NCBI GenBank assembly: GCA_042577285.1 | Contig: JBHPDM010000004.1 | Span: 1-52,881 of the forward strand | From: Candidatus Omnitrophota bacterium | GTDB lineage: Bacteria; Omnitrophota; Gorgyraeia; Gygaellales; Profunditerraquicolaceae | DNA length: 52,881 nt | Direction: 5' to 3' | In this document: one piece after another, positions 1 through 43,671 of the stretch | Layout of the letters: every line of letters begins with the position of its first letter | How positions within the stretch are numbered: the stretch's first letter is position 1 | The notes under the pieces: model-generated | Seen by the model: only the letters and a program-made list of their open reading frames with translations | Database searches by the model: none | Told to the model about the DNA's origin: nothing | Program-made: the position numbers and the translations under genes

Positions 1-17
1 ACCGCATCAGCAGACAT
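1..17 (-). CDS. 5' start of an unknown gene running off the window (MSADA...)
   Basis: Minus strand reads AGGAGGACGGT-ATG TCT GCT GAT GCG, a strong Shine-Dalgarno followed by ATG at 17. Confidence 0.4.
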
Positions 18-186
18 ACCGTCCTCCTATTGGCAAGAAACGATCAGTTAGAAATATGTTCTCCGAGAACAGACAATAAACGAAACCCTGCCTCACTGCA
101 GATATTTGATGATCTCCTACCGGCGCGTCTTTGCACCAATAAGCATGGGTTTTCAGGGTTTAGGCGGGATACAACGTTGTATCTTC

Positions 187-1479
187 CTATAAACCTAGTC
201 TCCTAAAGATCCTGTTCGTGTTGCGCAAATAATAATCCAGGTCAAAGATCTTCTCTATCTCTTTAGGCTTAAGGTAACGGGTGACTTTTTTATCCTTCAG
301 GAGATTATTCTTGTAATCTGAACCTTCCCTCCAGCTCTTCATCGCGCAGCCCTGAACAAGGTCATAGGCCTTGGCGCGAGGCAGGCCTTTATTCATCAGC
401 TCCACAAGCACTCTCTGCGAAAAGATCAACCCGTGCGTACGCACCAGATTGCTTAGCATATTATCCGGATAAACCATCAGCCCGCTGACCACCTCGATGA
501 ATTTATTAAGCATATAGTACAAAGCAAGAGTGGAGTCAGGAATGATCACCCGCTCGACTGAAGAATGGCTGATGTCACGCTCATGCCACAGGGAGACGTT
601 CTCCATCGCCGCTAAAGCATTAGCTCTTAAGATACGGCTCAGGCCGCAGATACGCTCGCAGATCACCGGGTTGCGCTTATGGGGCATGGCCGATGAACCC
701 TTCTGCCCCTTCCTAAAAGGCTCCTCTACCTCCAGGACCTCCGTCCTCTGCAGATGCCTGATCTCAGTAGCGAATTTCTCAAGCGAGGCCCCGATTATCG
801 CCAATGTCGCAAGATATTGTGCATGGACATCCCTCTGGATTACCTGCGTTGAGATCCTGGCCGCTTTTAGGCCGAGTTTATCGCAGACGTAGAGTTCGAC
901 CCGGGGATCGATATTTGAATAAGTTCCTACTGCGCCTGAGATCTTACCGACTGAAACCGCCTCCCTTGCCTGTTCCAAACGGACCAGGTTGCGCCTTGTC
1001 TCATCGTACCAGAGCGCAAGCTTCAGGCCAAATGTCATGGGTTCAGCATGGATGCCGTGGGTGCGGCCGATACAAACCATATCTTTATATCTTTTGGCTT
1101 TCTTAGCTAGTAAGTTGGAAACCTTAAGCAAAGAGCCCTGCAATAGGCGAGAAGCTTCCTTTAATTGTACACCGAGTGTTGTATCGAGGATATCTGAAGA
1201 GGTAAGCCCTAAATGCAGGTATTTAGCGTCCGACCCTATATTTTGTGCCACACAATTGACAAAAGCCACTACATCATGTTGTGTCCTGGCTTCTATTTTT
1301 TTGATCTTATCGATATTGAAACGGGCTTTTTTCTTGATCCGGCGCAGGGATTCCCTTGGTACCTTCTTCTGTTTAGCGAGGGCTTCTAGGGCTAGTATCT
1401 CGACCTGCAGCATGGTCTTAAACTTAAACTCATCCTGCCAGATCCGGGACATTTCAGGTAGGCTATAGCGTTCGATCAT
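187..1479 (-). CDS. purB: Adenylosuccinate lyase
   Basis: MIERYS N-terminus, GRTHG motif and fumarase-family signature SSAMPHKRNP; RBS AAGGAG upstream. Confidence 0.97.
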   Translation of the reverse strand: MIERYSLPEMSRIWQDEFKFKTMLQVEILALEALAKQKKVPRESLRRIKKKARFNIDKIKKIEARTQHDVVAFVNCVAQNIGSDAKYLHLGLTSSDILDTTLGVQLKEASRLLQGSLLKVSNLLAKKAKRYKDMVCIGRTHGIHAEPMTFGLKLALWYDETRRNLVRLEQAREAVSVGKISGAVGTYSNIDPRVELYVCDKLGLKAARISTQVIQRDVHAQYLATLAIIGASLEKFATEIRHLQRTEVLEVEEPFRKGQKGSSAMPHKRNPVICERICGLSRILRANALAAMENVSLWHERDISHSSVERVIIPDSTLALYYMLNKFIEVVSGLMVYPDNMLSNLVRTHGLIFSQRVLVELMNKGLPRAKAYDLVQGCAMKSWREGSDYKNNLLKDKKVTRYLKPKEIEKIFDLDYYLRNTNRIFRRLGL

Positions 1480-1512
1480 GGAGAGCTCCTTGCCATATTT
1501 CGCGGAAGCCCT

Positions 1513-1540
1513 ATTATAGCAGAAATCTAAGGTTTGGCAA
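1513..1540 (-). promoter_or_regulatory. Sigma70-type promoter of purB
   Basis: TTGCCA-N16-TATAAT with TG at the extended -10 position. Confidence 0.65.
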
Positions 1541-1571
1541 ATAAAAAAACCGCCGCAAGATGCGGCGGTTT
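1541..1571 (-). terminator. Intrinsic terminator after tRNA-Met
   Basis: AAACCGCCGCA/TGCGGCGGTTT stem with a 3-nt loop, followed by a T-run on the minus strand. Confidence 0.85.
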
Positions 1572-1574
1572 AAG

Positions 1575-1651
1575 TGGTTGCGGGGGGCAGATTTGAACTG
1601 CCGACCTTTAGGTTATGAGCCTAACGAGCTACCAGACTGCTCTACCCCGCG
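1575..1651 (-). tRNA. tRNA-fMet (CAT), initiator type
   Basis: 77-nt cloverleaf with CAT anticodon, C1xA72 mismatch, A11-U24 pair and encoded CCA. The anticodon stem is TTAGG/CCTAA. Confidence 0.93.
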
Positions 1652-1703
1652 ATATCTATAATAAGAAAGAGTGAAATTATTATACCACCTAAATTACAAG
1701 AAT

Positions 1704-3313
<1,610 letters not shown>

Positions 3314-3346
3314 GAATCGCTATAGCGCGCCTGCAGGAAATAGAAA

Positions 3347-3375
3347 TTGACTGCAACCGCCTTCTATGTTATTCT
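3347..3375 (+). promoter_or_regulatory. Sigma70-type promoter of ftsH, divergent from eno
   Basis: TTGACT-N17-TATTCT with extended -10 TG. Confidence 0.6.
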
Positions 3376-3394
3376 TGACGATAGAGGAGGAACT

Positions 3395-5092
3395 ATGAAC
3401 TCAAGAAAAATCAAACTCTTCATAAAATTCCACTGGATCACTATCTCTATATCAATATTCGCCCTACTTGTCGTTATTTCTTTATTCATCTTCCTGCGCA
3501 ACGCAATTATCGCCTGGACTACCTCTGAATCTTATGTGAAAAAGGCAGCCCTTGCTCAATACGCCTTGTTTTTCTATATTATCCTCGTGGTCCAGCTGAT
3601 CAGCTTGCCCTTAAGCGGTGCTCTCTGGATGTGGATCATGCGCGGCGGGTTTTCGAAATTTGCGCGCTTGCAAAAAAAAGCGGTCGAAGGAAAGGATATC
3701 GGCATCCACTGGGATGATGTCATCGGCATGGAGGAGGCTAAGCAGGAATCCCTGGAAGTAGTCCGCCTGATCACCGACCGGGCACAACTGCAGCGGATCG
3801 GTGGAAAGATCTTAAAAGGCATATTGATGCTGGGCCCGCCGGGCTGCGGCAAGACTTATCTGGCGAAGGCGATATCTACCGAGGCAGGCTTACCATTTAT
3901 TTCGATGTCCGGATCGGAGTTTATCGAGATGTTCGTCGGGGTAGGGGCAAGCCGTATCCGCAAGCTCTTTAAACAGGCACAGCAATTAGCCTACTCAGAT
4001 GGCGGATGCATCATCTTTATCGATGAGCTGGATGCCGTAGGGGCGCAGCGTGCGGCTGACCGCGGTTTCGGCGGCCAGAGGGAATCTAATACTACGCTTA
4101 ACCAGCTGCTTATAGAGATGGACGGCCTGAAAGAGAAAGATTACAACATCGTGGTGATCGGAGCGACCAATGCTCCGGAGGGATTCCTGGATCAGGCGCT
4201 GCTTCGCCCGGGCAGATTCGACCGTAAGATCTATGTCCAGCGCCCCAACCTGGAGGAGAGAGAAAAACTAATCGCCTATTACCTAAAAGGAGTAAAATAC
4301 GATCCCTCGCTGGACTACAAAAGGCTGGCCAGGCTTACCGTAGGAAGCACTCCTGCGGATATCGCAAACCTGGTCAAGGAAGCGGCGCTGATCGCCATAC
4401 GTAATAAGAAAGAATCGATCTCAATGGCGGAGATCTCAGAGGCATACGACCGGGTGGAAATGGGCATAAAGCACAAGGTGGTATTCGATCCGAAGCAGAA
4501 AGAAAAAGTCGCTTATCATGAAGCGGGACACGCCATCGCCATGTATCTTCTTGCTCCGCACGTAGATGTATTTAAAGCCACGCTGTTTGAGCGCGGCGGC
4601 GCCCTGGGATTTGTCCGTCCGCAATTGCGCGAAGATACCCATGTTCTCACTAAAGACTACTATCTCGGGCAGATAAAAACATTCCTCGGTTCCTATGCAG
4701 CAGAAAGAATAAAGTTTAACACCACCACCTCCGGCGTGAGCATGGATTTTACTTATGCCATGCGCACCGCCCACAGAATGGTCTGGGAGTGGGGAATGGG
4801 TAAATCGGGACTTATCGGAAACTACAGCATGTTAGAAAAGATGCCTTCCGATGCCGGCGTATTCAGGGGGGAATCTGCTTCCTTTGTCTCGGAAAAGATC
4901 AAAGAGCGTTTAAATAATGACGTAGACGAAATAATGCAGGAATGCCTTAAAGAGGCTGAAGGACTTTTAGTCAAAGAATCGGCCCTGCTTGAGCGATTTG
5001 CAAAGGAACTTATCCTGAAAGAAGAACTAAATTACGATGAGATCGAAGCAATCTTTAAGGAATTCGGCAAGGTCCGCCCTCCTCTTCTTTAG
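3395..5092 (+). CDS. ftsH: FtsH-family AAA+ zinc metalloprotease with two adjacent TMs and almost no periplasmic domain
   Basis: Walker A GPPGCGKT, Walker [22 protein letters not shown] and HEAGH zinc motif; GAGGAGG RBS before ATG 3395. Confidence 0.92.
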
Positions 5093-5900
5093 TCTTTTCG
5101 CTCTTTTAAGTCTCGCCGGATGTGAATACCGGATAGAGCCTACCTATAAAGAGAAAGATATCCCCCGGATCATCAAGAATATCTGCCAAGACGAGCTTGG
5201 CCTTGAAGTGGTCACTAAAAGGACGCATAATACGCTCTGGGTATATGCGCCGATGGCTAAGATACTGCATGAAGAATACGGCATAAAAGAAAATAAGTTT
5301 TTCGATGAGGGAATGTCGGAAAGGCTAAGGAATATCCTGATGACTATCGGCCGGGTGCTGATGAGCTCCGATAACGCACCGGAATTTTATGCGATCCTCG
5401 CCTCTGATATAAACTTAGGCATTGATTATACGATGATCGGATATCTCCTGGACCTGAAAAAATCATACGCCCAGGCGATACACTGGATGGAGGCGAACCG
5501 CAGGTATGTGATCAAGTTGGATGTCGCTCCTGATGCGATCGCAGATACTACGGGTGAGCACCTTAAGGCGTTTGATATAAAATTTACGGATTTTCTGGCT
5601 GCGCAGATCGGCCAAAGGATAGGCGCTAAATTCCAGGATGAGAATTGGAAGAATTATTTTTTAGTAGAGAAGACCGAAGGCCGGTTCTCTGAAGGAGTTT
5701 TTTCAATAGAATACTCTATTTCTCTGGTATCCCCCCTACAGCAAGAGATAGATATCAAAGAGGAAATATTAAATATAGTGACTTATTGTATAATGACTTA
5801 CGGATTTGAGGATTTCTCGCGGGTGGAATTGACCGATCTTCACAACGACGACCTGCTGATCCTGGGGAAGGATGCGATCATGACAAGACCTATGCCTTAA
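5037..5900 (+). CDS. Hypothetical lipoprotein
   Basis: 287-aa ORF with a basic N-terminus, hydrophobic stretch and lipobox LAGC; overlaps the end of ftsH by 56 nt. Confidence 0.7.
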   Translation: MRSKQSLRNSARSALLFFSLFALLSLAGCEYRIEPTYKEKDIPRIIKNICQDELGLEVVTKRTHNTLWVYAPMAKILHEEYGIKENKFFDEGMSERLRNILMTIGRVLMSSDNAPEFYAILASDINLGIDYTMIGYLLDLKKSYAQAIHWMEANRRYVIKLDVAPDAIADTTGEHLKAFDIKFTDFLAAQIGQRIGAKFQDENWKNYFLVEKTEGRFSEGVFSIEYSISLVSPLQQEIDIKEEILNIVTYCIMTYGFEDFSRVELTDLHNDDLLILGKDAIMTRPMP

Positions 5901-6495
5901 GGATCTTTACCCTTCTTGCTTCGATCTTCAGCCTGCCTTCTAAAAATAAACTTATCGCCTCAGGGTAAATCTTATGCTCGAGCTTATGGATCTTTGCCTC
6001 AAGGGTCTCTAGGGTATCATCTTCTTCGATCTTAACCTGCGCCTGCAGGATTATCGGCCCGTGGTCCATCTCTGCATCCACAAAGTGTACGGTAACACCC
6101 GTAATCTTTAATCCGTAGTCAAAGGCATCCTTTATCCCGTGTTCACCCTTAAACGAAGGAAGTATAGTCGGGTGGATATTCAGGATCTTATCTTTGTAGG
6201 CACTCACTAACTTAGGGCCGAGTATGCGCATAAAACCGGCCAGAACAATCAGGTCGATCTGATTCTCCGTCAAATGCTGAATGATCTTCTCTTCGAATTC
6301 ATCTTTGCCGGAAAAGTCATCCCTCTGGACTAAAACTACCTTCACTCCGGCTCTCTTTGCTCTGCCGATCACCCCGGCCTTAGGGTTATCGCAAACTAAC
6401 AAGGCCAAATCAGCCTTGACCTTCCCCTTCTTGACCGCCCTGCTGATCGCGCTGAAATTTGTCCCTCGCCCAGATGCGAAGACTGCTATTTTCAT
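5890..6495 (-). CDS. purN: Phosphoribosylglycinamide formyltransferase
   Basis: MKIAVFASGRGTN, LAGFMRIL, NIHP and GVTVHFVD...DHGPII motifs. Confidence 0.97.
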   Translation of the reverse strand: MKIAVFASGRGTNFSAISRAVKKGKVKADLALLVCDNPKAGVIGRAKRAGVKVVLVQRDDFSGKDEFEEKIIQHLTENQIDLIVLAGFMRILGPKLVSAYKDKILNIHPTILPSFKGEHGIKDAFDYGLKITGVTVHFVDAEMDHGPIILQAQVKIEEDDTLETLEAKIHKLEHKIYPEAISLFLEGRLKIEARRVKILKA

Positions 6496-6657
6496 ATCAA
6501 CCAACTCTTTCTATGTGGGCTCGGGATAAACCATGCAATTGATAGAAATGGTTTAATCCCTCGTCCGGAAGCGAAAACTGCTATTTTCATATCAACCAAC
6601 TCTTTCTATGTGGGCTCGGGATAAGCCATGCAACTTATAGAAATGGCTTAATCCCTC
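6462..6657. repeat. Diverged tandem duplication with a 95-bp period (6462-6562 and 6557-6657) covering the rnfB-purN spacer and the first 11 purN codons
   Basis: Direct alignment shows 8 differences per 95-bp unit; TCCCTC microhomology at the junctions. Confidence 0.93.
6492..6590 (-). CDS. 32-aa upstream ORF created by the duplication (MKIAVFASGRGIKPFLSIAWFIPSPHRKSWLI)
   Basis: The first 11 residues are identical to PurN, and its TGA overlaps the purN ATG (ATGA). Translation is not demonstrated. Confidence 0.45.
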   Translation of the reverse strand: MKIAVFASGRGIKPFLSIAWFIPSPHRKSWLI

Positions 6658-7436
6658 TGCCTGATGCATTTTGTAGGACAGACCTTCACGCATTCACCGC
6701 ACGAAGTACACTTATTATAATCTATTACCGCCAGATTATCAATAACATGTATAGCGTCAAACTTGCATGCCCTCTCGCATAATGTGCAGGCGATGCAGCC
6801 TACCGGACAGACTGCCTTTACCTCTTTCCCCAAATCCTGCGATTTGCAGGCGACAAATACCCTCCCGGTTACCGGAACCAGACTGAATAATTTCTTGGGG
6901 CAAGCTTCAACGCATTTATTGCAAGCCTTGCATTTGATTTCATCTACGGCCGGTAGGCCCTGATCAGACATCTTGATCGCGCCAAAGGGGCACACTCTTT
7001 CGCAAGTCCCAAAACCAAGACAGCCAAAAATACACTCCTTCTGGCCTCCTAAAAGCAGGTGCGCGGCGGTACAATCTTCTATTCCCCGGTAAAAGAACCG
7101 ATCCTTCACCTTGCTGCCGCCATTGCAATGCAGTACCGCAAGCTTCTTTACCTGTTTTTCAAGCGACTTACCTAATAACTGCGCGATCTTATGCTTTGCG
7201 TCCTCTTCACAGACCCTGCAGGCATCGATCACCGCTTTATCGCCGATCAGGGACTCGGCAAAACCGATGCATCCGGCGCAGCCGCAGGCGCCGCAATTTG
7301 AACCGGGAAGCAGGTCCTGCAGCTTGGCAAGGCGCGGATCAGTCTTAACCGCTAGCTTCCGGGAAGCAACGCTTAAGCTGACAGCAAATAAAACGCCTAA
7401 AAATCCGAGACTTAATATTGGAATTAATATATCCAT
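6648..7436 (-). CDS. rnfB: Rnf complex subunit B (FeS/polyferredoxin)
   Basis: N-terminal TM, LPGSNCGACG motif and several CxxCxxCxxxCP clusters. Confidence 0.95.
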   Translation of the reverse strand: MDILIPILSLGFLGVLFAVSLSVASRKLAVKTDPRLAKLQDLLPGSNCGACGCAGCIGFAESLIGDKAVIDACRVCEEDAKHKIAQLLGKSLEKQVKKLAVLHCNGGSKVKDRFFYRGIEDCTAAHLLLGGQKECIFGCLGFGTCERVCPFGAIKMSDQGLPAVDEIKCKACNKCVEACPKKLFSLVPVTGRVFVACKSQDLGKEVKAVCPVGCIACTLCERACKFDAIHVIDNLAVIDYNKCTSCGECVKVCPTKCIRQRD

Positions 7437-7437
7437 A

Positions 7438-8046
7438 TTAGAACTTGAATCCGTTAAATCCTAAGAAACTTAAGCCCATAAGTGCAGCAATAATGAAAGC
7501 GATCGGCGCGTCTTTGATTGCTTTGGGGATATTGCAAAAGTCCAGCCTCTCCCTGATCCCTGACATCAGTAGCATCGCCAGGGTAAAACCTATCCCCACG
7601 CAAACCCCCTGGAAAAGCGAATAGACAAAACTTCCCGCTAATGGCTTACTCCCCTTAAAGAACATATCTGAATTCAGGACTGCAACGCCCATCACAGCGC
7701 AATTTGTGGTGATCAATGCCAGATATATCCCGAAAAACCTGTGCATCGCCGGGCTTACCTTCCTGATCACCATCTCCACGAATTGTACGAAGGTAGCGAT
7801 CACCAGGATAAAAGATACAGTACGCAAATACTCCATATGGAAAGGGATCAAAAGGAACCTATAGATAAACCAGGTGATCATTGAGGACATCGTGATCACA
7901 AATGTAACCGCCAGGCTCATCGCCAGCGCCGGCTTAGTCTGTTTTGATATGGCGATAAATGGACACAGGCCTAAGAAACGCGAGAGGATTACATTGTTGA
8001 TAAAAACAGCTGAAATGAATATTGTAAGAAATTGCGCGATGCTCAT
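7438..8046 (-). CDS. rnfA: Rnf complex subunit A
   Basis: NNVILSRFLGLCPF and LITTNCAVMG motifs. Confidence 0.95.
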   Translation of the reverse strand: MSIAQFLTIFISAVFINNVILSRFLGLCPFIAISKQTKPALAMSLAVTFVITMSSMITWFIYRFLLIPFHMEYLRTVSFILVIATFVQFVEMVIRKVSPAMHRFFGIYLALITTNCAVMGVAVLNSDMFFKGSKPLAGSFVYSLFQGVCVGIGFTLAMLLMSGIRERLDFCNIPKAIKDAPIAFIIAALMGLSFLGFNGFKF

Positions 8047-8636
8047 GCTCTCCTACTCCTTAGTAAGTTAAAGAAACCTACTAGCAAACCGATCACCAAT
8101 AGGGCGCCTGCGGGCATGGCAAAAACGGATATCGGCTCAAAGCCCTTGATCAATGTAAACCCTAAGATCTTTCCTGAACCGAGGAATTCCCTTATTGCAG
8201 AGATCAAGATCAGGGCCAGAGAGAAACCTATCCCCATCCCTAAGCCGTCAAGTAAAGAATTTAAAAGCGAGTGCCTTGAGGCATAGGCTTCTGCGCGGGC
8301 CAGGACAATACAATTGACCACGATCAAAGGCACATATATCCCCAGGGCGCGGTTTAATGCCGGGCTATAAGCCTTAAGCATAAACTCTGCGATCGTGACA
8401 AAGGTAGCGATCACCACGATAAAACAGGGGATTCTGATCTTGTGAGGGATTACTCTTCTGATCGCGGAGACGATCAGATTGGAACCAATGATCACAAAGG
8501 TCGCGGCAAGCCCCATGCCGATGCCGTTGACCACGCTTACTGAAACCGCAAGTGTCGGACAAAGCCCGAGCAATAAAACAAAGGTGGGATTCTCTCTAAT
8601 GATCCCTTTTAAGAATTCATTAAATAATTTCTTCAT
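8043..8636 (-). CDS. rnfE: Rnf complex subunit E
   Basis: ENPTFVLLLGLCPTLA and PLIVVNCIVLARAE motifs. Confidence 0.95.
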   Translation of the reverse strand: MKKLFNEFLKGIIRENPTFVLLLGLCPTLAVSVSVVNGIGMGLAATFVIIGSNLIVSAIRRVIPHKIRIPCFIVVIATFVTIAEFMLKAYSPALNRALGIYVPLIVVNCIVLARAEAYASRHSLLNSLLDGLGMGIGFSLALILISAIREFLGSGKILGFTLIKGFEPISVFAMPAGALLVIGLLVGFFNLLRSRRA

Positions 8637-9574
8637 CTTTTTCCGTAAACTCTGGGCTTTGTATAACGGTCGATTATAGGAGTAGCCGCATTCATCATCA
8701 GGATCGCGTATGAGACGCCCTCAGGATAACCTCCCCAAATCCGGATGATCGCCGTAAGCAGGCCGCATCCGATGCCAAATATGATCTGTCCCTTCCTTGT
8801 CAAAGGGCAGGTGACATAATCCGTGGCCATAAAGAAAGCGCCCAAGATCAGGCCGCCGGTCAAAAGATGAAAGATCCAGTCACCGCTAAAATAGACATTG
8901 CCGCCAAAGATAAAAGTGAAGAGCCCGACGCTAAATATATATGTAAAAGGTACGTGCCAGGAGATGTAGCCCTTGATCAGAAGAAATAAGGCTCCTGCAA
9001 GAAGCGCGATAATGCAGACTTCACCGATACAGCCTCCCCTATTGCCTAAGAAGAGCTCCATGTATCCAAGATTCCCGATAGCGGCACCCTCCCTGGCTAA
9101 TGCAAGTGGCGTGGCAGAGGTCACGGCATCGTAACCAATAGGTGCGCTAAAATTAGTCATGTACTTTGGCCAGGAGGCCATCAGGAATACCCTGCCGACT
9201 AATGCCGGATTAAAGATGTTCTGTCCTAACCCGCCGAAGATCTGCTTTCCGATTGCTATGGCAAAGAAGGAACCGGCGATCGGCAGCCAGAAGGGGACCT
9301 GTGGAGGAAGATTATAGGCAAGCAGTAAGCCGGTAAGAAAGGCGCTCCCGTCAAAAGAAGTGACCTTTCTTTTCGTGGCAAGCTGTAATAGTGCCTCGGC
9401 AGCTAACGCTGAGATCACCCCTAAAACAATGACCTGCAGCGCATCTTTGCCGAAGATCCACACTCCTGCGGCGCCTGCCGGAATCAGACTGAGTGTCACC
9501 AGCCACATGATCTTACTCACGGATTCCGGCTTATGCAGGTGCGGAGAAGTTGCAACAATAAGTTTATCTACCAT
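8633..9574 (-). CDS. rnfD: Rnf complex subunit D
   Basis: SPH N-terminus, FGGLGQNIFNPA, SATPL FMN site, and FMATDYVTCP. Confidence 0.95.
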   Translation of the reverse strand: MVDKLIVATSPHLHKPESVSKIMWLVTLSLIPAGAAGVWIFGKDALQVIVLGVISALAAEALLQLATKRKVTSFDGSAFLTGLLLAYNLPPQVPFWLPIAGSFFAIAIGKQIFGGLGQNIFNPALVGRVFLMASWPKYMTNFSAPIGYDAVTSATPLALAREGAAIGNLGYMELFLGNRGGCIGEVCIIALLAGALFLLIKGYISWHVPFTYIFSVGLFTFIFGGNVYFSGDWIFHLLTGGLILGAFFMATDYVTCPLTRKGQIIFGIGCGLLTAIIRIWGGYPEGVSYAILMMNAATPIIDRYTKPRVYGKR

Positions 9575-10085
9575 CTCTGATCAGCTTTATTATTTGCGCG
9601 GATCTCTCTCTTATCGAATCTATCAGCGCGCTCGATGATATAGTCGCGCCGCTGATCGCCTCTACGCCTGAAAGCTGTGCCGCATCTCTTTCCTTAAACT
9701 GTTCCGTAAATCCAGGTTCAGTAACCCGGGAACCTAAACCAGGGGTCTCATTCTGACTCAATACCTTTATAGCTATGACCTTGCCACCCTTAGTCATCCC
9801 TACCATCGTTTCTATCACGCTGGAGTACCCCACAGCTTTCGCCTTGAAGGCTACTCCCGCAAGATCCCCCTTCTCGTCGTATGCCTTATAATAGACTAAA
9901 CCCTCTGCCTTAATTTCCTCAAAACGCCCTGCCTGCGGCACTACCTCTTTCAGGCTCTCCTCTTCTTCAGCCCTCGCCTGGGCGATGATCCTGGGTTTAG
10001 TCAAAAGATCTACGCCGCTTAAAAGGCCGGCAGAAATAACGCAGATTATCCCCAGGATAAAAGCATAACGAAGTATCTCCCTCAT
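9564..10085 (-). CDS. rnfG: Rnf complex subunit G
   Basis: N-terminal TM, ETPGLG and SGATISS FMN-binding motif. Confidence 0.93.
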   Translation of the reverse strand: MREILRYAFILGIICVISAGLLSGVDLLTKPRIIAQARAEEEESLKEVVPQAGRFEEIKAEGLVYYKAYDEKGDLAGVAFKAKAVGYSSVIETMVGMTKGGKVIAIKVLSQNETPGLGSRVTEPGFTEQFKERDAAQLSGVEAISGATISSSALIDSIRERSAQIIKLIRDGR

Positions 10086-11455
10086 CTTGCCGCCTCCAGC
10101 TTCGCTCTCTTTATTGACTGGACTAGATTCCTGTTTGCCGGGCAGACATAATTACATACCCCGCATTCAATGCAATCTAAAACTGAATCGTCTTTTGCCT
10201 GCGCCCAAAGCTCTTTCTCGCAAGCCAAATTCAAAAGACACGGCATCAGGCCCGCCGGACAATCTCTGACACAGGCGCCGCAGCGGATACAGGCCTCTTC
10301 TTCGTTTAGCGCGGCCTCTCTTTTGTTCAACAGGATAATACCGCTTGTAGTCTTTATCACCGGCACCGCATCCGTGCATTGCGCTATGCCCATCATCGGC
10401 CCACCGACCACAATTTTGGCCGGCTGATCCTTCAGGGGGCCGCAATGCCCGATTAACTCTCTTATCGGGGTACCTATCCTTGCCAGAATATTCTTCGGGC
10501 TTGATAGGCAGCTGCCGCTAACAGTCACAATCCGCTCGTACAGAGGTTTATTAAGATAAACCGCCTCGTAAACCGCAAAAGCCGTGGCTATGTTGTGCAC
10601 CACTACGCCGACGTCAAAGGGGAGCTTTCCGGAAGGGACCTCTCTGCCCAAGATATTCTTTATTAATTGTTTCTCTCCACCCTGGGGATACATGGATTTT
10701 AATATCCGTATTTCGTATCCCGCCTCTCCCGAGCGCAGCCGAGGGATATCTTGTATCTTGCTTTGGAAGGCCTTGATCGCCCCGGGCTTGTTATCCTCGA
10801 TCGCGATATACACCTGTTTTACGCCTAAACATCTTACTATCAGACCGACAGCTGAGATGATTTCGCTGGTTTTCTCAAGCATCAGGCAGTAATCGGCAGT
10901 CAGATACGGCTCGCACTCCGCACCGTTAACGATCAAAGAATCTACCGGCTTAGGCGGCTTGAGTTTTATGTGCGTAGGAAATCCCGCTCCCCCCATCCCT
11001 ACGATCCCGGCATCACCTACGATACCACGGATATCTTCGGGCCTTAACTTATCTATTTCGGTCTGCGCTCTGCTTGTCCCGCGAAGTCCCGAGCTAAACG
11101 AGGGAAGCGAAGCCGAGGGATGGTCTGTGGTCTGCCTGTCCTGAGCGGAGCCGAAGGATGGTCTATTCTCTCCATCGCCATTTATGACTATTGCCTTACA
11201 ACGGCCCAGCAGAGGATGCGGATGATCCCTTAAGCCCGTGACCTTTCCGGATATCGAGGCATGGATCGGAGCAAGGACATGGGCCTGGCAAGATGCGATC
11301 TTCTGCCCCAGGGATACTTGGTCTCCGACCCGGACTTGCGGTATGCAGGCCTTTCCCAGATGCTGGCTTAAAGGGATGTAAGCGATCTTTGGAGGCGCAA
11401 ATCTCTCTATGGGCAGGCCTCCCGTAAGATGTTTATGCTCCCTTAACTTGATCAT
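10082..11455 (-). CDS. rnfC: Rnf complex subunit C with in-frame palindromic insertions
   Basis: AGIVGMGGAGFPT, NGAECEPY, YPQGGEKQL and two C-terminal 4Fe-4S motifs. Confidence 0.95.
   Translation of the reverse strand: MIKLREHKHLTGGLPIERFAPPKIAYIPLSQHLGKACIPQVRVGDQVSLGQKIASCQAHVLAPIHASISGKVTGLRDHPHPLLGRCKAIVINGDGENRPSFGSAQDRQTTDHPSASLPSFSSGLRGTSRAQTEIDKLRPEDIRGIVGDAGIVGMGGAGFPTHIKLKPPKPVDSLIVNGAECEPYLTADYCLMLEKTSEIISAVGLIVRCLGVKQVYIAIEDNKPGAIKAFQSKIQDIPRLRSGEAGYEIRILKSMYPQGGEKQLIKNILGREVPSGKLPFDVGVVVHNIATAFAVYEAVYLNKPLYERIVTVSGSCLSSPKNILARIGTPIRELIGHCGPLKDQPAKIVVGGPMMGIAQCTDAVPVIKTTSGIILLNKREAALNEEEACIRCGACVRDCPAGLMPCLLNLACEKELWAQAKDDSVLDCIECGVCNYVCPANRNLVQSIKRAKLEAAR
10728..10746. repeat. 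Short palindromic element CCCGAGCGCAGCCGAGGGA inside rnfC (translated IPRLRSG)
   Basis: Same family as the elements at 11078-11158. Confidence 0.75.
11078..11165. repeat. Composite of nested short palindromic elements and TGGTCT(G/A) heptamers inside rnfC
   Basis: CCCG[24-nt insert]AGCGAAGCCGAGGGA at 11078-11120; heptamers at 11121, 11128 and 11159; CCTGTCCTGAGCGGAGCCGAAGGA at 11135-11158. Confidence 0.75.
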
Positions 11456-12708
11456 GCCGGCTGTTGCTTCTTAAACAGATTAAGCAATCCGAAAAACGCC
11501 AAAAATGTACCCACACTGATCATCACCCACATCGCATCCACTCGCTCCGCAATATAACTGCTGATAAACATAAAGATCAGGAAAGCCAAGTGGATTACTA
11601 TCTCCAGCGAGCTAAAGACTTTGCCGCGCATATGATCAATGCTTGCCTCATGGACTAGGGTATTTGCGATATTCATGATCGGCGAGACCGCCATTCCAAG
11701 CAACATCGCCAAGACTGCTGCCAGGTAAAAACTCTGGAACCTGTCTACGAGAAGGGTAAAAGCTACCAAAACAATACCTGATAAGGAAAGGCAGGCAAAG
11801 ATCGCCTTTTGATAAGGGATCTTCTGGCCGAACCTTCCGTAAAGCAGGGCGCCGAAGAAAAGCCCGAAAGCTAAAAACATGATCAAGAGCCCCAAATCCT
11901 TTGTTGCTGACTGAAGGCTGTTCTGCACAAAGATAATAAAGACGACATAGACCGAGCCCAGCGCCGACCAGAGAAGAAAAAGGATGCCGGTGGTGAAGCG
12001 CATCTTTTTCAGCCTGAAAAGGTAAAGCACCCCCTCCTTTATCTCCTCGATCACAGACTTACTGATCTCGCTTACCAGCTTTGTCCCCTCTATCGCCAGA
12101 TTCCTGGGATGCATAAATCTTATCCTCTTTGGCCTGATCAAAAATATCAATACCGCCGAGATCAGAAAGGTGAGCGCATCCAGGTAAAATCCGCCTTCGG
12201 CCTTCCACCATTCTACTAATAACCCGCCCAGCCCGAAGCCGATCACCGCAGCGATCATGCCGGTAACATTAACCAGGGAATTAGCTAATAAAAGATCCTT
12301 CTTCCGGGCTACCAGGTCCGGGATGATCGCAAGCTTCGCGGTGACAAAGAACCTTCCGATGCAGAAGACCAGGAATATGATAACATACAAAGGTATATTT
12401 GACCCTCTGCCCATCAAAAGTAACGGGATCGCCACCACCAGAATTGCACGCAGGAGGTCAGAGACGACCATTGTCCAGCGCCTGTCCCATCTATCGACAT
12501 ATACGCCTGCCAGCGGACCGATCAGAAATACCGGGATGATCGTAAAGGAGAGGATCTTGGCCATCTGCATCGCCGAACCCGGCGAACGCTCATAGACAAA
12601 GGCGATCAGGGCGATCTGACCCAGGCGGTCCCCCCACTGCGAGAGGATCTGGCCGAACCAGATCAGTGAAAAATTCCTGTTTTTAAGCACTTCTTTAAAT
12701 TTGACCAT
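11452..12708 (-). CDS. MFS transporter
   Basis: About 12 TMs and MFS motif A (GVYVDRWDRR); the stop overlaps the rnfC start. Confidence 0.9.
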   Translation of the reverse strand: MVKFKEVLKNRNFSLIWFGQILSQWGDRLGQIALIAFVYERSPGSAMQMAKILSFTIIPVFLIGPLAGVYVDRWDRRWTMVVSDLLRAILVVAIPLLLMGRGSNIPLYVIIFLVFCIGRFFVTAKLAIIPDLVARKKDLLLANSLVNVTGMIAAVIGFGLGGLLVEWWKAEGGFYLDALTFLISAVLIFLIRPKRIRFMHPRNLAIEGTKLVSEISKSVIEEIKEGVLYLFRLKKMRFTTGILFLLWSALGSVYVVFIIFVQNSLQSATKDLGLLIMFLAFGLFFGALLYGRFGQKIPYQKAIFACLSLSGIVLVAFTLLVDRFQSFYLAAVLAMLLGMAVSPIMNIANTLVHEASIDHMRGKVFSSLEIVIHLAFLIFMFISSYIAERVDAMWVMISVGTFLAFFGLLNLFKKQQPA

Positions 12709-12904
12709 AAGTCATAGGAGAGGTCTTACGATCCTTCGCCTCCATAACTAAAACGATTGAGACTCGGGATCCCTCAAGATTATGTCCCTCGCTACAATAG
12801 AATTCTTCTTCCATTTTTTTATCTATTTTTAAAAACTCCCCGTAATGCTTACACTTAATCGCCTCTTTCTTTATCTCTTCAGCACAAAGGAGACGTTTCT
12901 TCAT
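12695..12904 (-). CDS. Small hypothetical protein
   Basis: 69-aa ORF crossing the islet boundary repeat; no recognised motif. Confidence 0.35.
   Translation of the reverse strand: MKKRLLCAEEIKKEAIKCKHYGEFLKIDKKMEEEFYCSEGHNLEGSRVSIVLVMEAKDRKTSPMTYGQI
12753..12781. repeat. Direct repeat, copy 1 (islet boundary)
   Basis: ACGATT-N4-CTCGGGATCCCTCAAGATT matches 13626-13654, with the 19-bp core identical. Confidence 0.85.
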
Positions 12905-41056: not shown

Positions 41057-43671
41057 GAAAGCTTTAAGACCTCCTCCCTGATAGCATTAGCGATCGCCTG
41101 GTAATCATCCAATACGCCCCTCTTGCTGCCTGCCTTGATCAGATCCCTGGCGCTCATGGGGCTGCCGAAAGTAACCCTTAAAGGATACGGCCGGGGCAGA
41201 CGCTCTGTTCTCGGCCAGGAGCAATGTGAGCCTTTGATATATGCTGGGATCACCGGAACATCCAGCTCCTTGACCAAAATACCGATTCCTTTTTTAAATT
41301 CTGCTACCTTTTCATCGACTGCACGGCGGCCTTCGGGGAATATGCAGATGATTTTATTATTACGCAGGACCAGGGCAGCTGCCTGCATCGCCTCGCAGAG
41401 TTGGGAACTGGAATCTATGGAGATCAACCTTGCAATTTTAGCTGACCAGCTGACTGAGGGGTGCTCAAAGATCTGGCTATAAACCAAAAAGAATGTCTTT
41501 TGCGCAACGCCTAAAGGGATCCCGCAAAAGAGCACGAATGGATCAAGATAGCTGGCGTGATTTGCGCAGATGATATAGGGGCCGTCTGCCGGCAGAGGGT
41601 TCTTCATCTTTATGCGTAAAAACCAGAAGATCTTAAAAATGATCATAAAGAAAACTTTAAACAGCCCGTTAAAGAGCTTATCCGCAAACCCTATGCGCAG
41701 CCTGATCTTCCTTTCCAAGAGCTCATCAGGAAGAGCCTGCCTGATAATCTTCCCCCAATCCTTCTCTCTGCCTGCATAGGGCACGGCAGCTCCGGCCTTG
41801 ATGATCCCGGAAACGATCAGTAATACCTCTCTTACCGTCGATGCCTCGGATAACGAGCCGTCGGGTATAGTTATCCCCAATTTTCTCTCAAGCCCTAAGA
41901 ATAACTCGACCTTGCCCAATGAATCTATGCCCAGATCGATCTCCAGATGGCTATCCGGGTTGACCGGTTTCTTTAACTCTTTGCTGATAAAACCGATCAG
42001 ATTATCGGCGAGCGCCTGGTCTACGCCCGGCAGGTTTCTCTCAGCGGGTGGCTCTTTCGTTACTTCAGGATCAGGCAGGCTCTGGCTAAAGTAAAGTTCA
42101 CGCACCTGGTACCTCTTGATCTTATTAAGCGCGGTGCGCGGAAGATCCTCCTTTACGACCTTAAAACCCATAATATGATTGTAGGAGGCCAACTCCTTGC
42201 CCAGATTCTCCAGCTCCCAGCGGATCTTCTCACCTATGCCTATGCCGGTTTCTTTAGTCTTACGCAAATATTCCAGATCCGGAACCACCACCGCGGCGAG
42301 TTTCTCATCTTTAGATAAAACGCAGATCTCTTTGATATAGGGGCTCTGCAGATAATGCTCCTCCAGCTCTTGGGGATAAATATTCTTACCCGAAGCCAGG
42401 ACGATGACCTCTTTCTCTCTGCCGACGAGAAATAGATAACCCTCCTTGTCAAGATAGCCTGAATCCCCGGAGTAAAACCATCCATCCCTTATCGCCTCGC
42501 GCGTTAAGTCCGGCCGCTTGAAATATCCCTGCATTACATTGGGCCCCTTGATCAAGACCTGACCCACGCCCGAGTCATTGGGATTGAGTATCTTTATCTT
42601 GACACCCGGTAAAGGCCTCCCTACTGATCCGGGCTTCACTTTTTGATGAGAATTAAGCGTTGCTATCGGGCTGGTCTCGGTCAAGCCGTAACCTTCGATC
42701 ATTCTGAAACCCAGCCTTGATAATCCCCGCACTACCGCCGGATCGATCCTTGCTCCGCCGCTGACCAAGAGCCTCAAGTCATTGCCCAGGCGCTTGCGCA
42801 GGCTTGACTTTACAAATGGTAAAGCAAACGGCCTAAAAAAGAATGGGATCTTGCTTATCTTATCGGCTATTGATTTATAAAGAAGCGAAAAGAGCTGCGG
42901 CACGCCCATCAGGACCGAGACCCTCCCCTCTTTTATCGTCTCGATCATATCCTTGGATTTAAGGCTGGGGCAATAGGTGACCTTAGCACCCAACAAAAGC
43001 GGGACCAGCAGCGTGCCCATAAAGGCATAAGTATGATGCAGGGGTAAAAGCGAGATCAGGTTGTCTGAAGAAGAACAGACATCTAATTGCGTGATCGCCG
43101 CAAAGTTAGAACAGAAGTTCCGGTGCGTCAAGATCACGCCCTTGGGATTTGAGGTCGTGCCTGATGTATAGACAAGCGAAGCAATATCCTGCGGCAGAAC
43201 CTGGGGCAGGTCGAGCTTTCCCTGGCCAGCGCTCTTGCTCTTTAAAAAGGAGGCATCGACTGCAACGCACTCAAGATGCAACTCATCGGCTATCCCCCTT
43301 AACTCTTCAGAGAGGATCTGCCGGGAGGAGAATATCACCTTTGCCGAACTGTCACTAAGTAAGTTCTTTAGGGCCTTGCAGCTTAATTGAATATCCAGCG
43401 GCACGCAGGCCAATCCGGCGTAGCTGATCCCCAGGTAGATAACCGCCCACTCAGGAGAATTCTCCAAGAGCAGCGCGACAAAATCACCCTTCTTCAGGCC
43501 CTCTGCAAGCAGGAAGCCAGCCACCCTGATAGCGCCAGCCTTAACCTCTTCATAAGTCAAGGCCTGCCAAAGACCCTCTCTCTTGATCTGCAGGGCTATC
43601 CCTTTAGGATTACCCGAAGAGGCCCGGTCGAACAACTCCGGGATGACTAGTGCGCCTTCTCGCTTAGGCAT
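41050..43671 (-). CDS. Trifunctional acyl-AMP ligase + ACP + PlsC-type acyltransferase (Aas-like)
   Basis: YTSGTTSNPKG, GYGLTETSP, ACP serine motif LGIDSLG, NHASYLD and FPEGRR; the start is probably MPKRE at 43671. Confidence 0.88.
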   Translation of the reverse strand: MPKREGALVIPELFDRASSGNPKGIALQIKREGLWQALTYEEVKAGAIRVAGFLLAEGLKKGDFVALLLENSPEWAVIYLGISYAGLACVPLDIQLSCKALKNLLSDSSAKVIFSSRQILSEELRGIADELHLECVAVDASFLKSKSAGQGKLDLPQVLPQDIASLVYTSGTTSNPKGVILTHRNFCSNFAAITQLDVCSSSDNLISLLPLHHTYAFMGTLLVPLLLGAKVTYCPSLKSKDMIETIKEGRVSVLMGVPQLFSLLYKSIADKISKIPFFFRPFALPFVKSSLRKRLGNDLRLLVSGGARIDPAVVRGLSRLGFRMIEGYGLTETSPIATLNSHQKVKPGSVGRPLPGVKIKILNPNDSGVGQVLIKGPNVMQGYFKRPDLTREAIRDGWFYSGDSGYLDKEGYLFLVGREKEVIVLASGKNIYPQELEEHYLQSPYIKEICVLSKDEKLAAVVVPDLEYLRKTKETGIGIGEKIRWELENLGKELASYNHIMGFKVVKEDLPRTALNKIKRYQVRELYFSQSLPDPEVTKEPPAERNLPGVDQALADNLIGFISKELKKPVNPDSHLEIDLGIDSLGKVELFLGLERKLGITIPDGSLSEASTVREVLLIVSGIIKAGAAVPYAGREKDWGKIIRQALPDELLERKIRLRIGFADKLFNGLFKVFFMIIFKIFWFLRIKMKNPLPADGPYIICANHASYLDPFVLFCGIPLGVAQKTFFLVYSQIFEHPSVSWSAKIARLISIDSSSQLCEAMQAAALVLRNNKIICIFPEGRRAVDEKVAEFKKGIGILVKELDVPVIPAYIKGSHCSWPRTERLPRPYPLRVTFGSPMSARDLIKAGSKRGVLDDYQAIANAIREEVLKLSC

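What the first reader, a model, noticed from the sequence alone, without database searches (positions are those of the whole stretch)
6462..6657. Diverged 95-bp tandem duplication ahead of purN with a compensatory base pair and only synonymous coding changes
The two copies differ at 8 of 95 positions. Four differences are third-codon synonymous changes in the duplicated MKIAVFASGRG (GTT/GTC, GCT/GCA, TCC/TCT, GGA/GGG). Two form a compensatory pair in an 8-bp stem (TAAACCAT/ATGGTTTA versus TAAGCCAT/ATGGCTTA), and two fall in the loop. The loop segment TTCTAT and the downstream ATAGAA are invariant and could form a pseudoknot helix next to the purN ribosome-binding region. This pattern suggests selection on both an RNA structure and a peptide. 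Possible readings are a tandem cis-regulatory RNA controlling purN translation, or a scar of allele replacement from a related strain. Amplification artefacts give identical copies, so that explanation is unlikely.
Basis: partly seen in the sequence, partly recalled or inferred. Interest (0 to 1): 0.72.

Follow-up and report, generated by a model that had tools for sequence, protein, structure and literature searches.

The report
Diverged tandem duplication at purN start
A 95-base stretch joining the end of rnfB to the start of purN is present twice in a row in this uncultured Omnitrophota genome; it is most likely a slippage or recombination scar and not a conserved metabolite-sensing RNA, so it is a modest curiosity.

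Summary
Bases 6462-6657 are a gap-free 95-bp tandem repeat (2.06 copies, 8/95 differences) on the minus strand. Each unit carries the rnfB stop codon, a hairpin, the purN ribosome-binding region and purN codons 1-11. The array is bounded by a G-rich GAGGGA direct repeat, the usual signature of a slippage or template-switch duplication.

The differences are non-random: 4/4 coding changes fall at four-fold sites (P about 0.003), one stem pair is compensated (P about 0.02), and a 48-nt core is identical (P about 0.02).

The riboswitch reading fails. The only same-genus genome has a 20-nt spacer with no hairpin and no duplication. 234 genomes of the order lack the spacer, and Rfam gives nothing.

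The two genomes are a recombination mosaic (53-96% identity at four-fold sites, gene by gene). I therefore favour a real duplication whose copies carry alleles shaped in different lineages.

The hairpin is built from parts of a dispersed tandem-G.A hairpin repeat of this genome, but in permuted order, and the family model does not match it.

A by-product is a 32-codon upstream ORF whose stop overlaps the purN start (ATGA).

Interest is low to moderate.

The parts
6648..7436 (-). rnfB (262 aa); its last codons ...AGG CAG AGG GAT TAA supply the upstream GAGGGA repeat and the 5' foot of hairpin B
   Evidence: ORF list; Pfam Fer4/FeS hits; nearest relatives are annotated RnfB
6557..6651 (-). Copy B (distal unit): rnfB stop TAA, hairpin with a G-C pair, leader, ATG and 11 purN-like codons (GTT GCT TCC GGA alleles)
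6462..6556 (-). Copy A (proximal unit): hairpin with an A-U pair, leader, and the real purN start with codons 1-11 (GTC GCA TCT GGG alleles, identical to G001 at the three comparable sites)
6652..6657 (-). GAGGGA, upstream copy of the bounding direct repeat. The extended imperfect match is rnfB GGCAGAGGGA against purN GGGCGAGGGA
6557..6562 (-). GAGGGA at the B/A junction (the novel joint ...GGACGAGGGA|TTAAACC...)
6462..6467 (-). GAGGGA at the end of copy A (purN codons 10-11, native; also present in G001)
6618..6655 (-). Hairpin B: GGGAUUAAGCCAU-loop-AUGGCUUAUCCC (-14.1 kcal/mol; -20.3 with the extension); it encloses the rnfB stop codon
6523..6560 (-). Hairpin A: GGGAUUAAACCAU-loop-AUGGUUUAUCCC (-11.7 kcal/mol; -16.7 with the extension); its 5' foot comes from the duplicated purN fragment
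6614..6622 (-). ATCCCGAGC in copy B, the C-rich half-site of the genome's tandem-G.A hairpin family
6519..6527 (-). ATCCCGAGC in copy A. It can pair either with the upstream GGGA or, 49 nt downstream, with GCGAGGGA in purN codons 8-11
6492..6590 (-). Upstream ORF of 32 codons, created by the duplication (MKIAVFASGRGIKPFLSIAWFIPSPHRKSWLI). It has the same ribosome-binding region and ATG as purN. Its TGA stop overlaps the purN ATG (ATGA)
5890..6495 (-). purN (201 aa, phosphoribosylglycinamide formyltransferase)
   Evidence: Pfam PF00551, E 6e-57; homologues named PurN
6714..6742 (-). Promoter-like TTGATA-17-TATAAT (11/12) inside the rnfB 3' end, facing purN. It lies in codons for the conserved IDNLAVIDYNK motif, so it may be coincidental
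   Evidence: sequence conservation visible

Best explanation
This is a real, lineage-specific structural variant and not a conserved regulatory RNA.

Step 1 (partly shown). The rnfB-stop / hairpin-leader / purN-start segment was duplicated head to tail by misalignment between two G-rich short direct repeats. These are GAGGGA, extended imperfectly as GGC(A)GAGGGA, at the end of rnfB and in purN codons 9-11. This is the classic route of replication slippage or template switching.

Step 2 (inferred). The two copies differ because they carry alleles shaped by purifying selection in different lineages of a heavily recombining population. Two routes would give this. The join itself may have been made between a resident and an imported diverged allele (homology-facilitated illegitimate recombination). 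Alternatively, after a clean duplication, imported homologous DNA overwrote the outer ends of the array, with tracts stopping where homology breaks. This accounts for synonymous-only coding changes, a compensated stem pair and an untouched 48-nt core, without any selection on the duplicate itself.

Step 3 (shown from sequence). Copy B now starts a 32-codon ORF with purN's own ribosome-binding region. Its TGA stop overlaps the purN ATG (ATGA), and its translation would run through hairpin A.

Step 4 (inferred). The effect on purN expression is probably small. Any benefit would come from re-initiation and hairpin melting, which would restore the tight rnfB-purN coupling seen in relatives.

The hairpin itself is assembled from parts of a dispersed hairpin repeat of this genome and is not a ligand-binding fold.
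For: Anatomy: gap-free period 95, 2.06 copies, GAGGGA at all three boundaries. Six extra matching bases have a chance of about 2e-4.

Both GAGGGA sites are native. They stand 52 nt apart in single copy in G001. G001 is single-copy and about 90% identical on both flanks.

G-rich junctions of 4-15 bp, with further interrupted identity, are the documented signature of template-switch tandem duplications (PMC1428787).

The differences are non-neutral.

G001 matches copy A at all four comparable sites: stem position 5, and the GCA, TCT and GGG codons. Copy B is therefore the odd allele.

G000 and G001 are a recombination mosaic. Identity at four-fold sites is 83% in purN and 88% in its neighbour, 66/53/67/62% in rnfB/A/E and the next gene, then 86-96%. 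Copy A and B differ at 4 of 7 four-fold sites, which is the range of the divergent blocks, while 48 nt of non-coding core are identical. A uniform in-situ clock does not predict that combination.

Against the riboswitch reading.

Short palindromic indels and about 100-bp tandem duplications are common in this genome.

Homology-facilitated illegitimate recombination at 3-10 bp microhomologies is documented in transformable bacteria (PMC6382021).
Against: No reads could be examined, so the b|a junction and the phasing of the eight variants are unverified.

No donor allele was found. The genus has only two sampled genomes, and the next PurN and RnfB relatives are at 78% and 75% identity.

The change in divergence from G001 lies about 100-170 nt upstream of the array, not at it. 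With about one block boundary per 1.4 kb, that proximity is not significant.

The same pattern (changes only at synonymous sites, in the loop and in a compensated pair) is also what long-term selection on two functional copies would give.

The direction of the 33-nt hairpin indel (gain in G000 or loss in G001) is unresolved.
Confidence: 0.5

Rival explanations
1. Functional tandem leader. The duplication is old and both copies are maintained by selection. The two hairpins, with the C-rich segment AUCCCGAGCCCA toggling between an upstream and a downstream G-rich partner, together with the leader ORF, form a translational control element for purN. In this reading each translating ribosome melts the next hairpin in a relay from rnfB to the upstream ORF to purN.
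For: The difference pattern is what purifying selection on an RNA plus a reading frame predicts. Every segment of the 33-nt G000-specific stretch is complementary to something nearby: the 3' arm, TTCTAT/ATAGAA, and AUCCCGAGCCCA against UGGGCGAGGGA. The upstream ORF stop overlaps the purN start. Relatives keep rnfB and purN tightly coupled.
Against: The element is absent from the only congener and from 234 genomes of the order, and there is no Rfam match. There is no evident reason why the first 11 residues of a leader peptide should be conserved. Copy B's changes at positions 85 and 88 weaken the GCCCA/UGGGC extension of hairpin A (-16.7 against -24.7 kcal/mol for an a-type foot). Divergence at 4 of 7 four-fold sites implies a very old tandem repeat, which should be recombinationally unstable. 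The whole-region fold is not unusual (z = -1.6).
Confidence: 0.15
2. Assembly or consensus artefact in a metagenome-assembled genome with co-occurring strains. Either the tandem arrangement does not exist, or a real duplication has identical copies and variants of a second strain were written into one copy through the 48-nt identical core or during polishing.
For: The genome is a 62-contig, 78%-complete metagenome bin. The eight variants fall in two clusters separated by 48 identical bases, which short k-mers cannot phase. Several other two-copy repeats of about 100 bp occur in the same assembly.
Against: The joint needs a k-mer that links variant 88 of B to variant 5 of A, only 12 nt apart. 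A de Bruijn assembler cannot invent that, and a 6-nt overlap cannot create a false join. A boundary at a 6-nt microhomology is not expected from juxtaposed contig ends (about 2e-4 by chance). One of the other duplications (C3, 92 bp) has a clean empty site in G001, as real insertion polymorphisms do.
Confidence: 0.15
3. Hairpin-repeat-mediated event. The joint was made by breakage or template switching at the foot of a tandem-G.A hairpin of the family ATCCCGAG-N21-25-CGAGGGA, possibly by the small GIY-YIG nucleases encoded next to arrays of that repeat. The duplication would then be a by-product of that repeat system and not of plain slippage.
For: The unit contains the exact C-rich half-site ATCCCGAGC (32 copies against 8.4 expected, most of them in the family). 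It is bounded by the G-rich half-site, and copy A's loop carries CTATCAATTGC, a motif whose other three genomic copies are all in family apexes. The family has 21 copies in G000, 9 in G001, 13 in G021 and none for the reversed control pattern, and its apical stems covary. It forms tandem arrays beside a GIY-YIG gene. Ssn-type GIY-YIG nucleases cut ssDNA at repeats and modulate transformation (PMC11893778).
Against: The family covariance model does not hit the locus at E <= 10. The parts are in permuted order (G-half, apex, C-half) and the C-half to G-half spacing is 49 nt instead of 21-25. Both GAGGGA sites are ordinary coding sequence that G001 also has. No nuclease activity or cut site is known for this family.
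Confidence: 0.12
4. Neutral decay. Copy B is a functionless duplicate drifting freely, and the pattern of differences is coincidence.
For: All four sites that G001 can polarise place the change on copy B, as expected if only copy A is constrained.
Against: The probability that at least 4 coding hits are all synonymous is 0.003, that of a compensated pair 0.02, and that of a 48-nt unchanged run 0.02. No simulated case out of 200,000 showed the first two together.
Confidence: 0.03

Closest known systems
Microhomology-bounded tandem duplications formed by slippage or template switching (for example E. coli lac amplification junctions, PMC1428787)
   Same: Direct head-to-tail repeat with no filler. 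The junction lies at a short G-rich identity (6 bp here, 4-15 bp there) with further interrupted identity nearby. A relative holds the single-copy state with both short repeats.
   Different: The unit is only 95 bp, against kilobases. The copies are 8% diverged in a selection-like pattern, whereas fresh duplications are identical.
Homology-facilitated illegitimate recombination during natural transformation (de Vries & Wackernagel 2002, Prudhomme et al. 2002, as summarised in PMC6382021)
   Same: One homologous anchor plus one end joined at 3-10 bp of microhomology would place a foreign allele beside the resident one. The genome shows a strong recombination mosaic.
   Different: No donor was identified, competence is not shown for this organism, and the nearest mosaic boundary lies about 100-170 nt from the array.
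ZTP (pfl), purine, PRPP and THF riboswitches upstream of purine and folate genes (Rfam; from my own knowledge of the field)
   Same: Position in the leader of a purine-biosynthesis gene. A hairpin plus a possible loop-to-downstream helix next to the ribosome-binding site.
   Different: No covariance-model match, no conservation even within the genus, and no conserved ligand-pocket nucleotides can be defined.
Translational coupling through overlapping stop and start codons (ATGA) and leader ORFs (textbook operon biology, my own knowledge)
   Same: The upstream ORF stop TGA overlaps the purN ATG. Relatives couple rnfB and purN by ATGA/TAATG overlaps or very short spacers.
   Different: Here the upstream ORF is an accidental copy of the gene's own start and is not a conserved leader peptide. 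Its translation is untested.
Dispersed hairpin repeats and MITE-like elements of bacteria (REP/BIME, Correia, and the NTS/SRM repeats partnered with Ssn GIY-YIG nucleases, PMC11893778)
   Same: The locus hairpin shares half-sites and a loop motif with a 21-copy hairpin family that has a conserved foot and covarying apex. That family is patchily distributed among genera and forms arrays beside a small GIY-YIG gene.
   Different: The locus is not a canonical copy: order is permuted, the model gives no hit, and no other copy of the 95-bp unit exists anywhere searched.
Evolutionary unit made of an ORF 3' end, the intergenic region and the next ORF's 5' end, in tandem paralog clusters (PMC2568036, abstract seen)
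   Same: The repeated and exchanged unit spans a gene end, the spacer and the next gene's start.
   Different: That case concerns whole paralogous genes in Staphylococcus. Here only 95 bp are repeated, once.

Membership tests
Known riboswitch / cis-regulatory RNA classes (Rfam 15, incl. ZTP, purine, PRPP, THF) | Match to a family covariance model | tested here: not met
   cmscan of 5800-7500 at E <= 10 returned only two chance hits, a plant miRNA and a Caulobacter sRNA, both far below their gathering scores
Known riboswitch / cis-regulatory RNA classes (Rfam 15, incl. ZTP, purine, PRPP, THF) | Conservation of the structure in orthologous leaders | tested here: not met
   G001 has a 20-nt spacer without the hairpin's 3' arm. 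29 other relatives have short or non-homologous spacers. There is no copy in 234 genomes of the order or in metagenome contigs
Microhomology-mediated tandem duplication | Head-to-tail copies without filler, bounded by a short direct repeat that pre-exists in the single-copy state | tested here: met
   Period 95, no indels, GAGGGA at all three boundaries. G001 carries both GAGGGA sites in single copy
Microhomology-mediated tandem duplication | Novel joint present in physical molecules (reads) | not testable with these tools
No independent assembly of this population is on record
Heteroallelic recombination scar (HFIR or conversion by diverged DNA) | Flanks or copies of different ancestry | tested here: inconclusive
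   There is a strong gene-by-gene mosaic against G001, and copy A is G001-like at 4/4 comparable sites. However, the block boundary is about 100-170 nt from the array and only one comparison genome exists
Heteroallelic recombination scar (HFIR or conversion by diverged DNA) | A donor lineage carrying the b allele in single copy | tested here: not met
   None was found: the b/a-degenerate 25-mer scan gave 0 hits, and the nearest PurN and RnfB outside the genus are at 78% and 75% identity
Omnitrophota tandem-G.A hairpin repeat (ATCCCGAG-N21-25-CGAGGGA) | Canonical architecture: C-half, covarying apex of 21-25 nt, G-half | tested here: not met
   Model R1, built from 24 copies, gives no hit at 6462-6657 at E <= 10, while it finds 12732-12770 at E 1e-4. 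At the locus the order is G-half, apex, C-half, and the C-half to G-half spacing is 49 nt
Omnitrophota tandem-G.A hairpin repeat (ATCCCGAG-N21-25-CGAGGGA) | Family-specific sequence parts (half-sites, apical loop motif) | tested here: met
   Exact ATCCCGAGC and GCGAGGGA. The loop motif CTAT[CT]AAT[CT]GC occurs 4 times in the genome, 3 of them in family apexes and 1 in copy A.
Leader-ORF translational coupling | Upstream ORF with its own ribosome-binding site whose stop overlaps or abuts the downstream start | tested here: met
   ATG 6590, stop TGA 6494-6492 overlapping the purN ATG at 6495-6493. The upstream region is identical to that of purN over 48 nt
Leader-ORF translational coupling | Conservation or demonstrated translation of the leader ORF | tested here: not met
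   Absent in G001 and all other relatives. Translation cannot be tested with these tools

The most novel reading that the evidence does not exclude
The duplication is a footprint of a hairpin-repeat / small GIY-YIG (Ssn-like) nuclease system of Omnitrophota. On this reading, single-stranded DNA is cut or switches template at the foot of tandem-G.A hairpins (the ...GAGGGA|T half-site). Imported or nascent strands therefore end there and are rejoined at look-alike coding sequences. The result is heteroallelic tandem duplications, and the recombination tracts that make these genomes mosaic are delimited in the same way. The purN leader would be a case in which parts of the repeat were captured between two native GAGGGA sites.
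Probability: 0.12. Interest if true: 0.6.

Novelty: new member of a known kind. Interest (0 to 1): 0.3.

Why it matters
On the favoured reading this is an ordinary mutational product, with two instructive lessons.

First, a 'selection signature' between two tandem copies (synonymous-only and compensatory changes) need not mean that the duplicate is functional. It can be inherited from alleles that evolved apart and were then brought together. This is a caution for covariation-based RNA discovery in recombining, metagenome-derived genomes.

Second, it adds a data point on how small Omnitrophota genomes remodel operon junctions. rnfB-purN junctions in several genera have independently acquired hairpin-rich inserts. 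This genome carries a dispersed tandem-G.A hairpin family that is absent from Rfam, and the locus reuses its parts.

If the rival functional reading were true, this would be a very young, lineage-specific translational control element born from repeat parts and a duplication. That would be of interest for how regulatory RNAs originate.

Tried and rejected

2. Independent assemblies: exact look-ups of PurN and RnfB found no record. Metagenome scans found nothing, neither with the invariant 23-mer nor with an a/b-degenerate 25-mer of the purN start.

3. Closer relatives: PurN drops from 92% identity (G001) to 78%, and RnfB from 79% to 75%. No donor lineage is available.

4. Rfam, on the locus and on 12 family hairpin loci: only tRNAs and an rRNA start matched.

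5. The spacer as a multi-copy element: blastn-short against the genome found nothing beyond words of 15 nt or fewer. BLAST against 234 genomes of the order found only chance-level short matches.

6. Simple inverted-copy (template-switch) origin of the 33-nt G000-specific stretch: considered, then set aside. A plain inverted copy of the flank would read ATCCCTCGC, not ATCCCGAGC. The observed GA is the hallmark of the dispersed hairpin family.

7. Canonical membership in that family: rejected, because the covariance model gives no hit.

8. A mosaic boundary exactly at the array: rejected. The drop in identity to G001 begins about 100-170 nt upstream, at a 69-nt insert in G001's rnfB.

9. Intrinsic terminator role for the hairpins: rejected. 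There is no U-tract and no terminator-like hit at the hairpins.

10. Whole-region thermodynamic signal: weak (z = -1.6).
Full report
**What is there**

The window belongs to a 1.25-Mb, 62-contig, 78%-complete metagenome bin. Its PurN and RnfB relatives are annotated as Candidatus Omnitrophota. The relevant genes are on the minus strand: rnfB at 7436..6648 and purN at 6495..5890.

Tandem Repeats Finder reports 6462-6657 as a repeat of period 95, 2.1 copies, 92% matches and no indels. The gap-free alignment of copy A (6462-6556, continuous with purN) and copy B (6557-6651, next to rnfB) shows 8 differences, 6 of them transitions.

Read on the minus strand, each unit contains, in order:
- TTAA (the rnfB stop in copy B)
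- a hairpin
- ATCCCGAGCCCAC
- ATAGAAAGAG (SD-like)
- TTGGTTGAT
- ATG and ten further purN codons, ending ...CGAGGGA.

Two points are added. First, the stem is 12 bp with one bulge (GGGAU-U-UAARCCAU / AUGGYUUA-UCCC), not 8 bp. Second, the hexamer GAGGGA stands before copy B (the rnfB codons AGG GAT), at the end of B and at the end of A. The longer imperfect match is GGCAGAGGGA against GGGCGAGGGA.

**Is the pattern more than chance?**

I placed 8 substitutions at random on the unit 200,000 times.
- Given at least four hits in the 33 coding bases, all were synonymous in 0.3% of trials.
- A two-sided compensated stem pair arose in 2%.
- An unchanged run of 48 nt or more arose in 2%.
- No trial combined the first two.

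The A-U to G-C change is energetically graded, because the G.U intermediate costs nothing (-11.7, -11.7 and -14.1 kcal/mol), whereas the A.C hybrid costs 4 kcal/mol. The pattern was, however, spotted after the fact.

**Is it a conserved regulatory RNA?**

No.
- Rfam gives nothing at E <= 10.
- rnfB-purN adjacency is widespread in the order, but typically with overlapping or abutting genes (ATGA, TAATG, 0-25 nt).
- The only other genome of the genus, G001, is about 90% identical on both flanks. It reads GGGATTAAACCAT|ATAAAGGAAGCTGGT|ATG, a 20-nt spacer with no loop, no 3' arm and no duplication.
- The 68-nt spacer has no relative in 234 genomes of the order.
- Two metagenome scans found nothing.
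- The whole-region fold is unremarkable (z = -1.6), and the hairpins have no U-tract.

The proposed pseudoknot (UUCUAU/AUAGAA) is six mostly A-U pairs. I estimate that a 13-nt loop and a 30-nt tail would offer such a match by chance about 5-10% of the time. Its loop half also belongs to a motif explained below.

**How the duplication arose**

Two copies with no filler, bounded by a 6-nt G-rich identity that exists at both sites in the single-copy relative, are the textbook footprint of misalignment or template switching between short direct repeats. E. coli amplification junctions are 4-15 bp of G-rich identity, often with further interrupted identity nearby (PMC1428787).

A boundary at a 6-nt identity is not what juxtaposed contig ends would give (about 2e-4 by chance). 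A 6-nt overlap cannot mislead a k-mer assembler either. In addition, variant 88 of copy B and variant 5 of copy A are only 12 nt apart, so the b|a joint must exist in reads if the assembly is k-mer based.

This genome holds other two-copy repeats of about 100 bp. For one of them, 92 bp between tmRNA and an amidase gene, G001 has a clean empty site. I take this to mean that such polymorphisms are biological.

**Why the copies differ**

G001 can polarise four of the eight sites: stem position 5 and the codons GCA, TCT and GGG. All four agree with copy A, so copy B is the odd one.

Plain neutral decay of B is rejected by the statistics above. Two explanations remain: selection on both copies in place, or alleles that evolved under selection as single-copy functional sequences in different lineages and were then brought together. 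I favour the second, for three reasons.

1. G000 and G001 are a striking recombination mosaic. Identity at four-fold degenerate sites runs gene by gene as 87-88% on the far side, 63% in ftsH, 88% in the next gene, 83% in purN, 66% in rnfB, 53% in rnfA, 67% in rnfE, 62% in the next gene, then 86-96%.
2. Copies A and B differ at 4 of 7 four-fold sites, the level of the most divergent blocks. Yet 48 nt of non-coding core are identical, even though that same region differs freely between G000 and G001. A single in-situ clock does not give both.
3. The variants sit at the two ends of the unit. That is where tracts anchored in rnfB or in purN would have to stop, because homology breaks at the array.

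The join may itself have been heteroallelic. Homology-facilitated illegitimate recombination uses 3-10 bp microhomologies (PMC6382021). Alternatively, a clean duplication may have been partly overwritten later.

The caveats are real. No donor allele exists in any collection searched. The drop in identity to G001 begins about 100-170 nt upstream of the array, at a 69-nt insert in G001's rnfB, and not at the array. With one block boundary per about 1.4 kb, that proximity is not significant. Finally, the in-place selection model predicts the same kinds of change.

**Consequences**

Copy B supplies a complete ribosome-binding region and an ATG (6590). The frame runs through hairpin A and ends at TGA 6494-6492, overlapping the purN ATG as ATGA. 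This 32-codon ORF (MKIAVFASGRGIKPFLSIAWFIPSPHRKSWLI) is a mechanical result of 95 = 3n+2 and of purN's second codon being AAA. Its translation would melt hairpin A and could deliver ribosomes to the purN start. That would mimic the tight rnfB-purN coupling of relatives. This step is inferred, not shown.

**What the hairpin is made of**

The 9-mer ATCCCGAGC, just 3' of each hairpin, occurs 32 times in the genome against 8.4 expected. Most copies belong to a hairpin family, ATCCC-GA-G...C-GA-GGGAT, with tandem G.A mismatches and an apex of 21-25 nt.

- The exact pattern occurs 21 times in G000, 9 in G001, 13 in G021 and 5 in G039, with single copies in six further genomes. The reversed control pattern occurs nowhere.
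- In 24 copies the apical stem covaries: both-sided changes in 5, 8 and 14 sequences at three pairs, and no shuffle out of 500 reached the observed score.
- The family is not in Rfam.
- It forms 41-bp arrays on both sides of a small GIY-YIG gene.

Our unit has the exact C-rich half. It is bounded by the G-rich half, GCGAGGGA in copy A. Copy A's loop carries CTATCAATTGC, a motif whose only other three occurrences in the genome are family apexes.

The order, however, is permuted: G-half, apex, C-half, then 49 nt of leader, then G-half. A covariance model of the family finds a canonical copy in the window at 12732-12770 but nothing at the locus. The hairpin is thus built from family parts without being a family member.

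Both G-halves are ordinary coding sequence that G001 also has. G001 also retains the apex's 5' arm (TTAAACCAT), so it may have lost the 33 nt by deletion between CCA repeats, as an alternative to G000 having gained them. This stays open.

Earlier notes of this scan proposed mobile hairpin elements at gene starts in Omnitrophota, and they led me to look for this. I confirmed the existence of the family, its covariation and its patchy distribution. I did not test its mobility mechanism.

**Verdict**

This is a real, diverged, microhomology-bounded tandem duplication at an operon junction. The selection-like differences are most economically read as inherited from recombining alleles. It is not a riboswitch. 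I put 0.5 on that composite.

The rivals are a functional tandem leader (0.15), an assembly or consensus artefact (0.15), a hairpin-repeat or nuclease-mediated origin (0.12, partly overlapping the main reading) and pure drift (0.03). Read mapping across the joint is the decisive missing test.

Noticed in passing
window 12732-12770 (-); genome-wide in G000 (e.g. C42:1614-1652, C48:92-130, C30:9509-9547, C9:16614-16651): A dispersed hairpin family, ATCCCGAG-N21-25-CGAGGGA(T), with tandem G.A mismatches, an invariant foot and a covarying apex. It has 21 exact copies in G000, 9 in G001, 13 in G021, 5 in G039 and none for the reversed control pattern. It is not in Rfam. Several copies sit just upstream of start codons or just after tRNA genes.
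   Followed up: partly
window 10726-10746 (+) and 11086-11105 (+), inside rnfC: Mini-palindromes with the same foot (TCCCGAG...CGAGGGA) and apexes of only 5-6 nt lie inside the rnfC reading frame. G000 and G001 differ here by 24-nt and 27-nt palindromic indels.
   Followed up: partly
G000 contig C3:25566-25767; G001 C20:8578-8894 (L046, L047): A perfect 92-bp tandem duplication between tmRNA and an amidase start. Each unit ends in the amidase's 18-nt leader TTTCCGACAAGGAAAAAT. G001 has a clean empty site with one copy of the leader, so this is an insertion polymorphism that duplicates a ribosome-binding leader.
   Followed up: partly
L032 (G001:C3) 8540-8608, orthologous to window ~6743: G001's rnfB carries a 69-nt in-frame insert rich in inverted and direct repeats (CTTCGGC/GCCGAAG, CTGAGCG/CGCTCAG, TCGAGGGG twice). 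It coincides with the point where G000-G001 identity drops from about 95% to about 80%.
   Followed up: no
window 1-12900 against L032: G000 and G001 are a fine-scale recombination mosaic. Identity at four-fold sites ranges from 53% (rnfA) to 96% between adjacent genes, and blocks of 97-98% nucleotide identity alternate with blocks of about 80%.
   Followed up: partly
L017, L021, L026, L029 (rnfB-purN junctions of four other genera): Where the rnfB-purN spacer is long (63-104 nt), it is filled by non-homologous, strongly folding hairpins (-27 to -48 kcal/mol). In L021 the 3' arm contains the SD and the GTG start. These are independent hairpin insertions at the same junction.
   Followed up: partly
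window 6714-6742 (-): A near-consensus promoter-like site, TTGATA-17-TATAAT (11/12), inside the rnfB 3' end and pointing at purN. It is encoded by the conserved IDNLAVIDYNK motif, so it is possibly fortuitous.
   Followed up: no
G000 contigs C22:16914-17163, C28:6624-6863, C44:6059-6329, C1:42969-43136 and 43480-43614: Further tandem repeats: 132 bp x1.9 (100% identical, containing hairpin-element sequence), 117 bp x2.1 (97%, bounded by GCCGCC), 108 bp x2.5, and 41-bp hairpin arrays flanking a GIY-YIG gene at C1:43143-43361.
   Followed up: no
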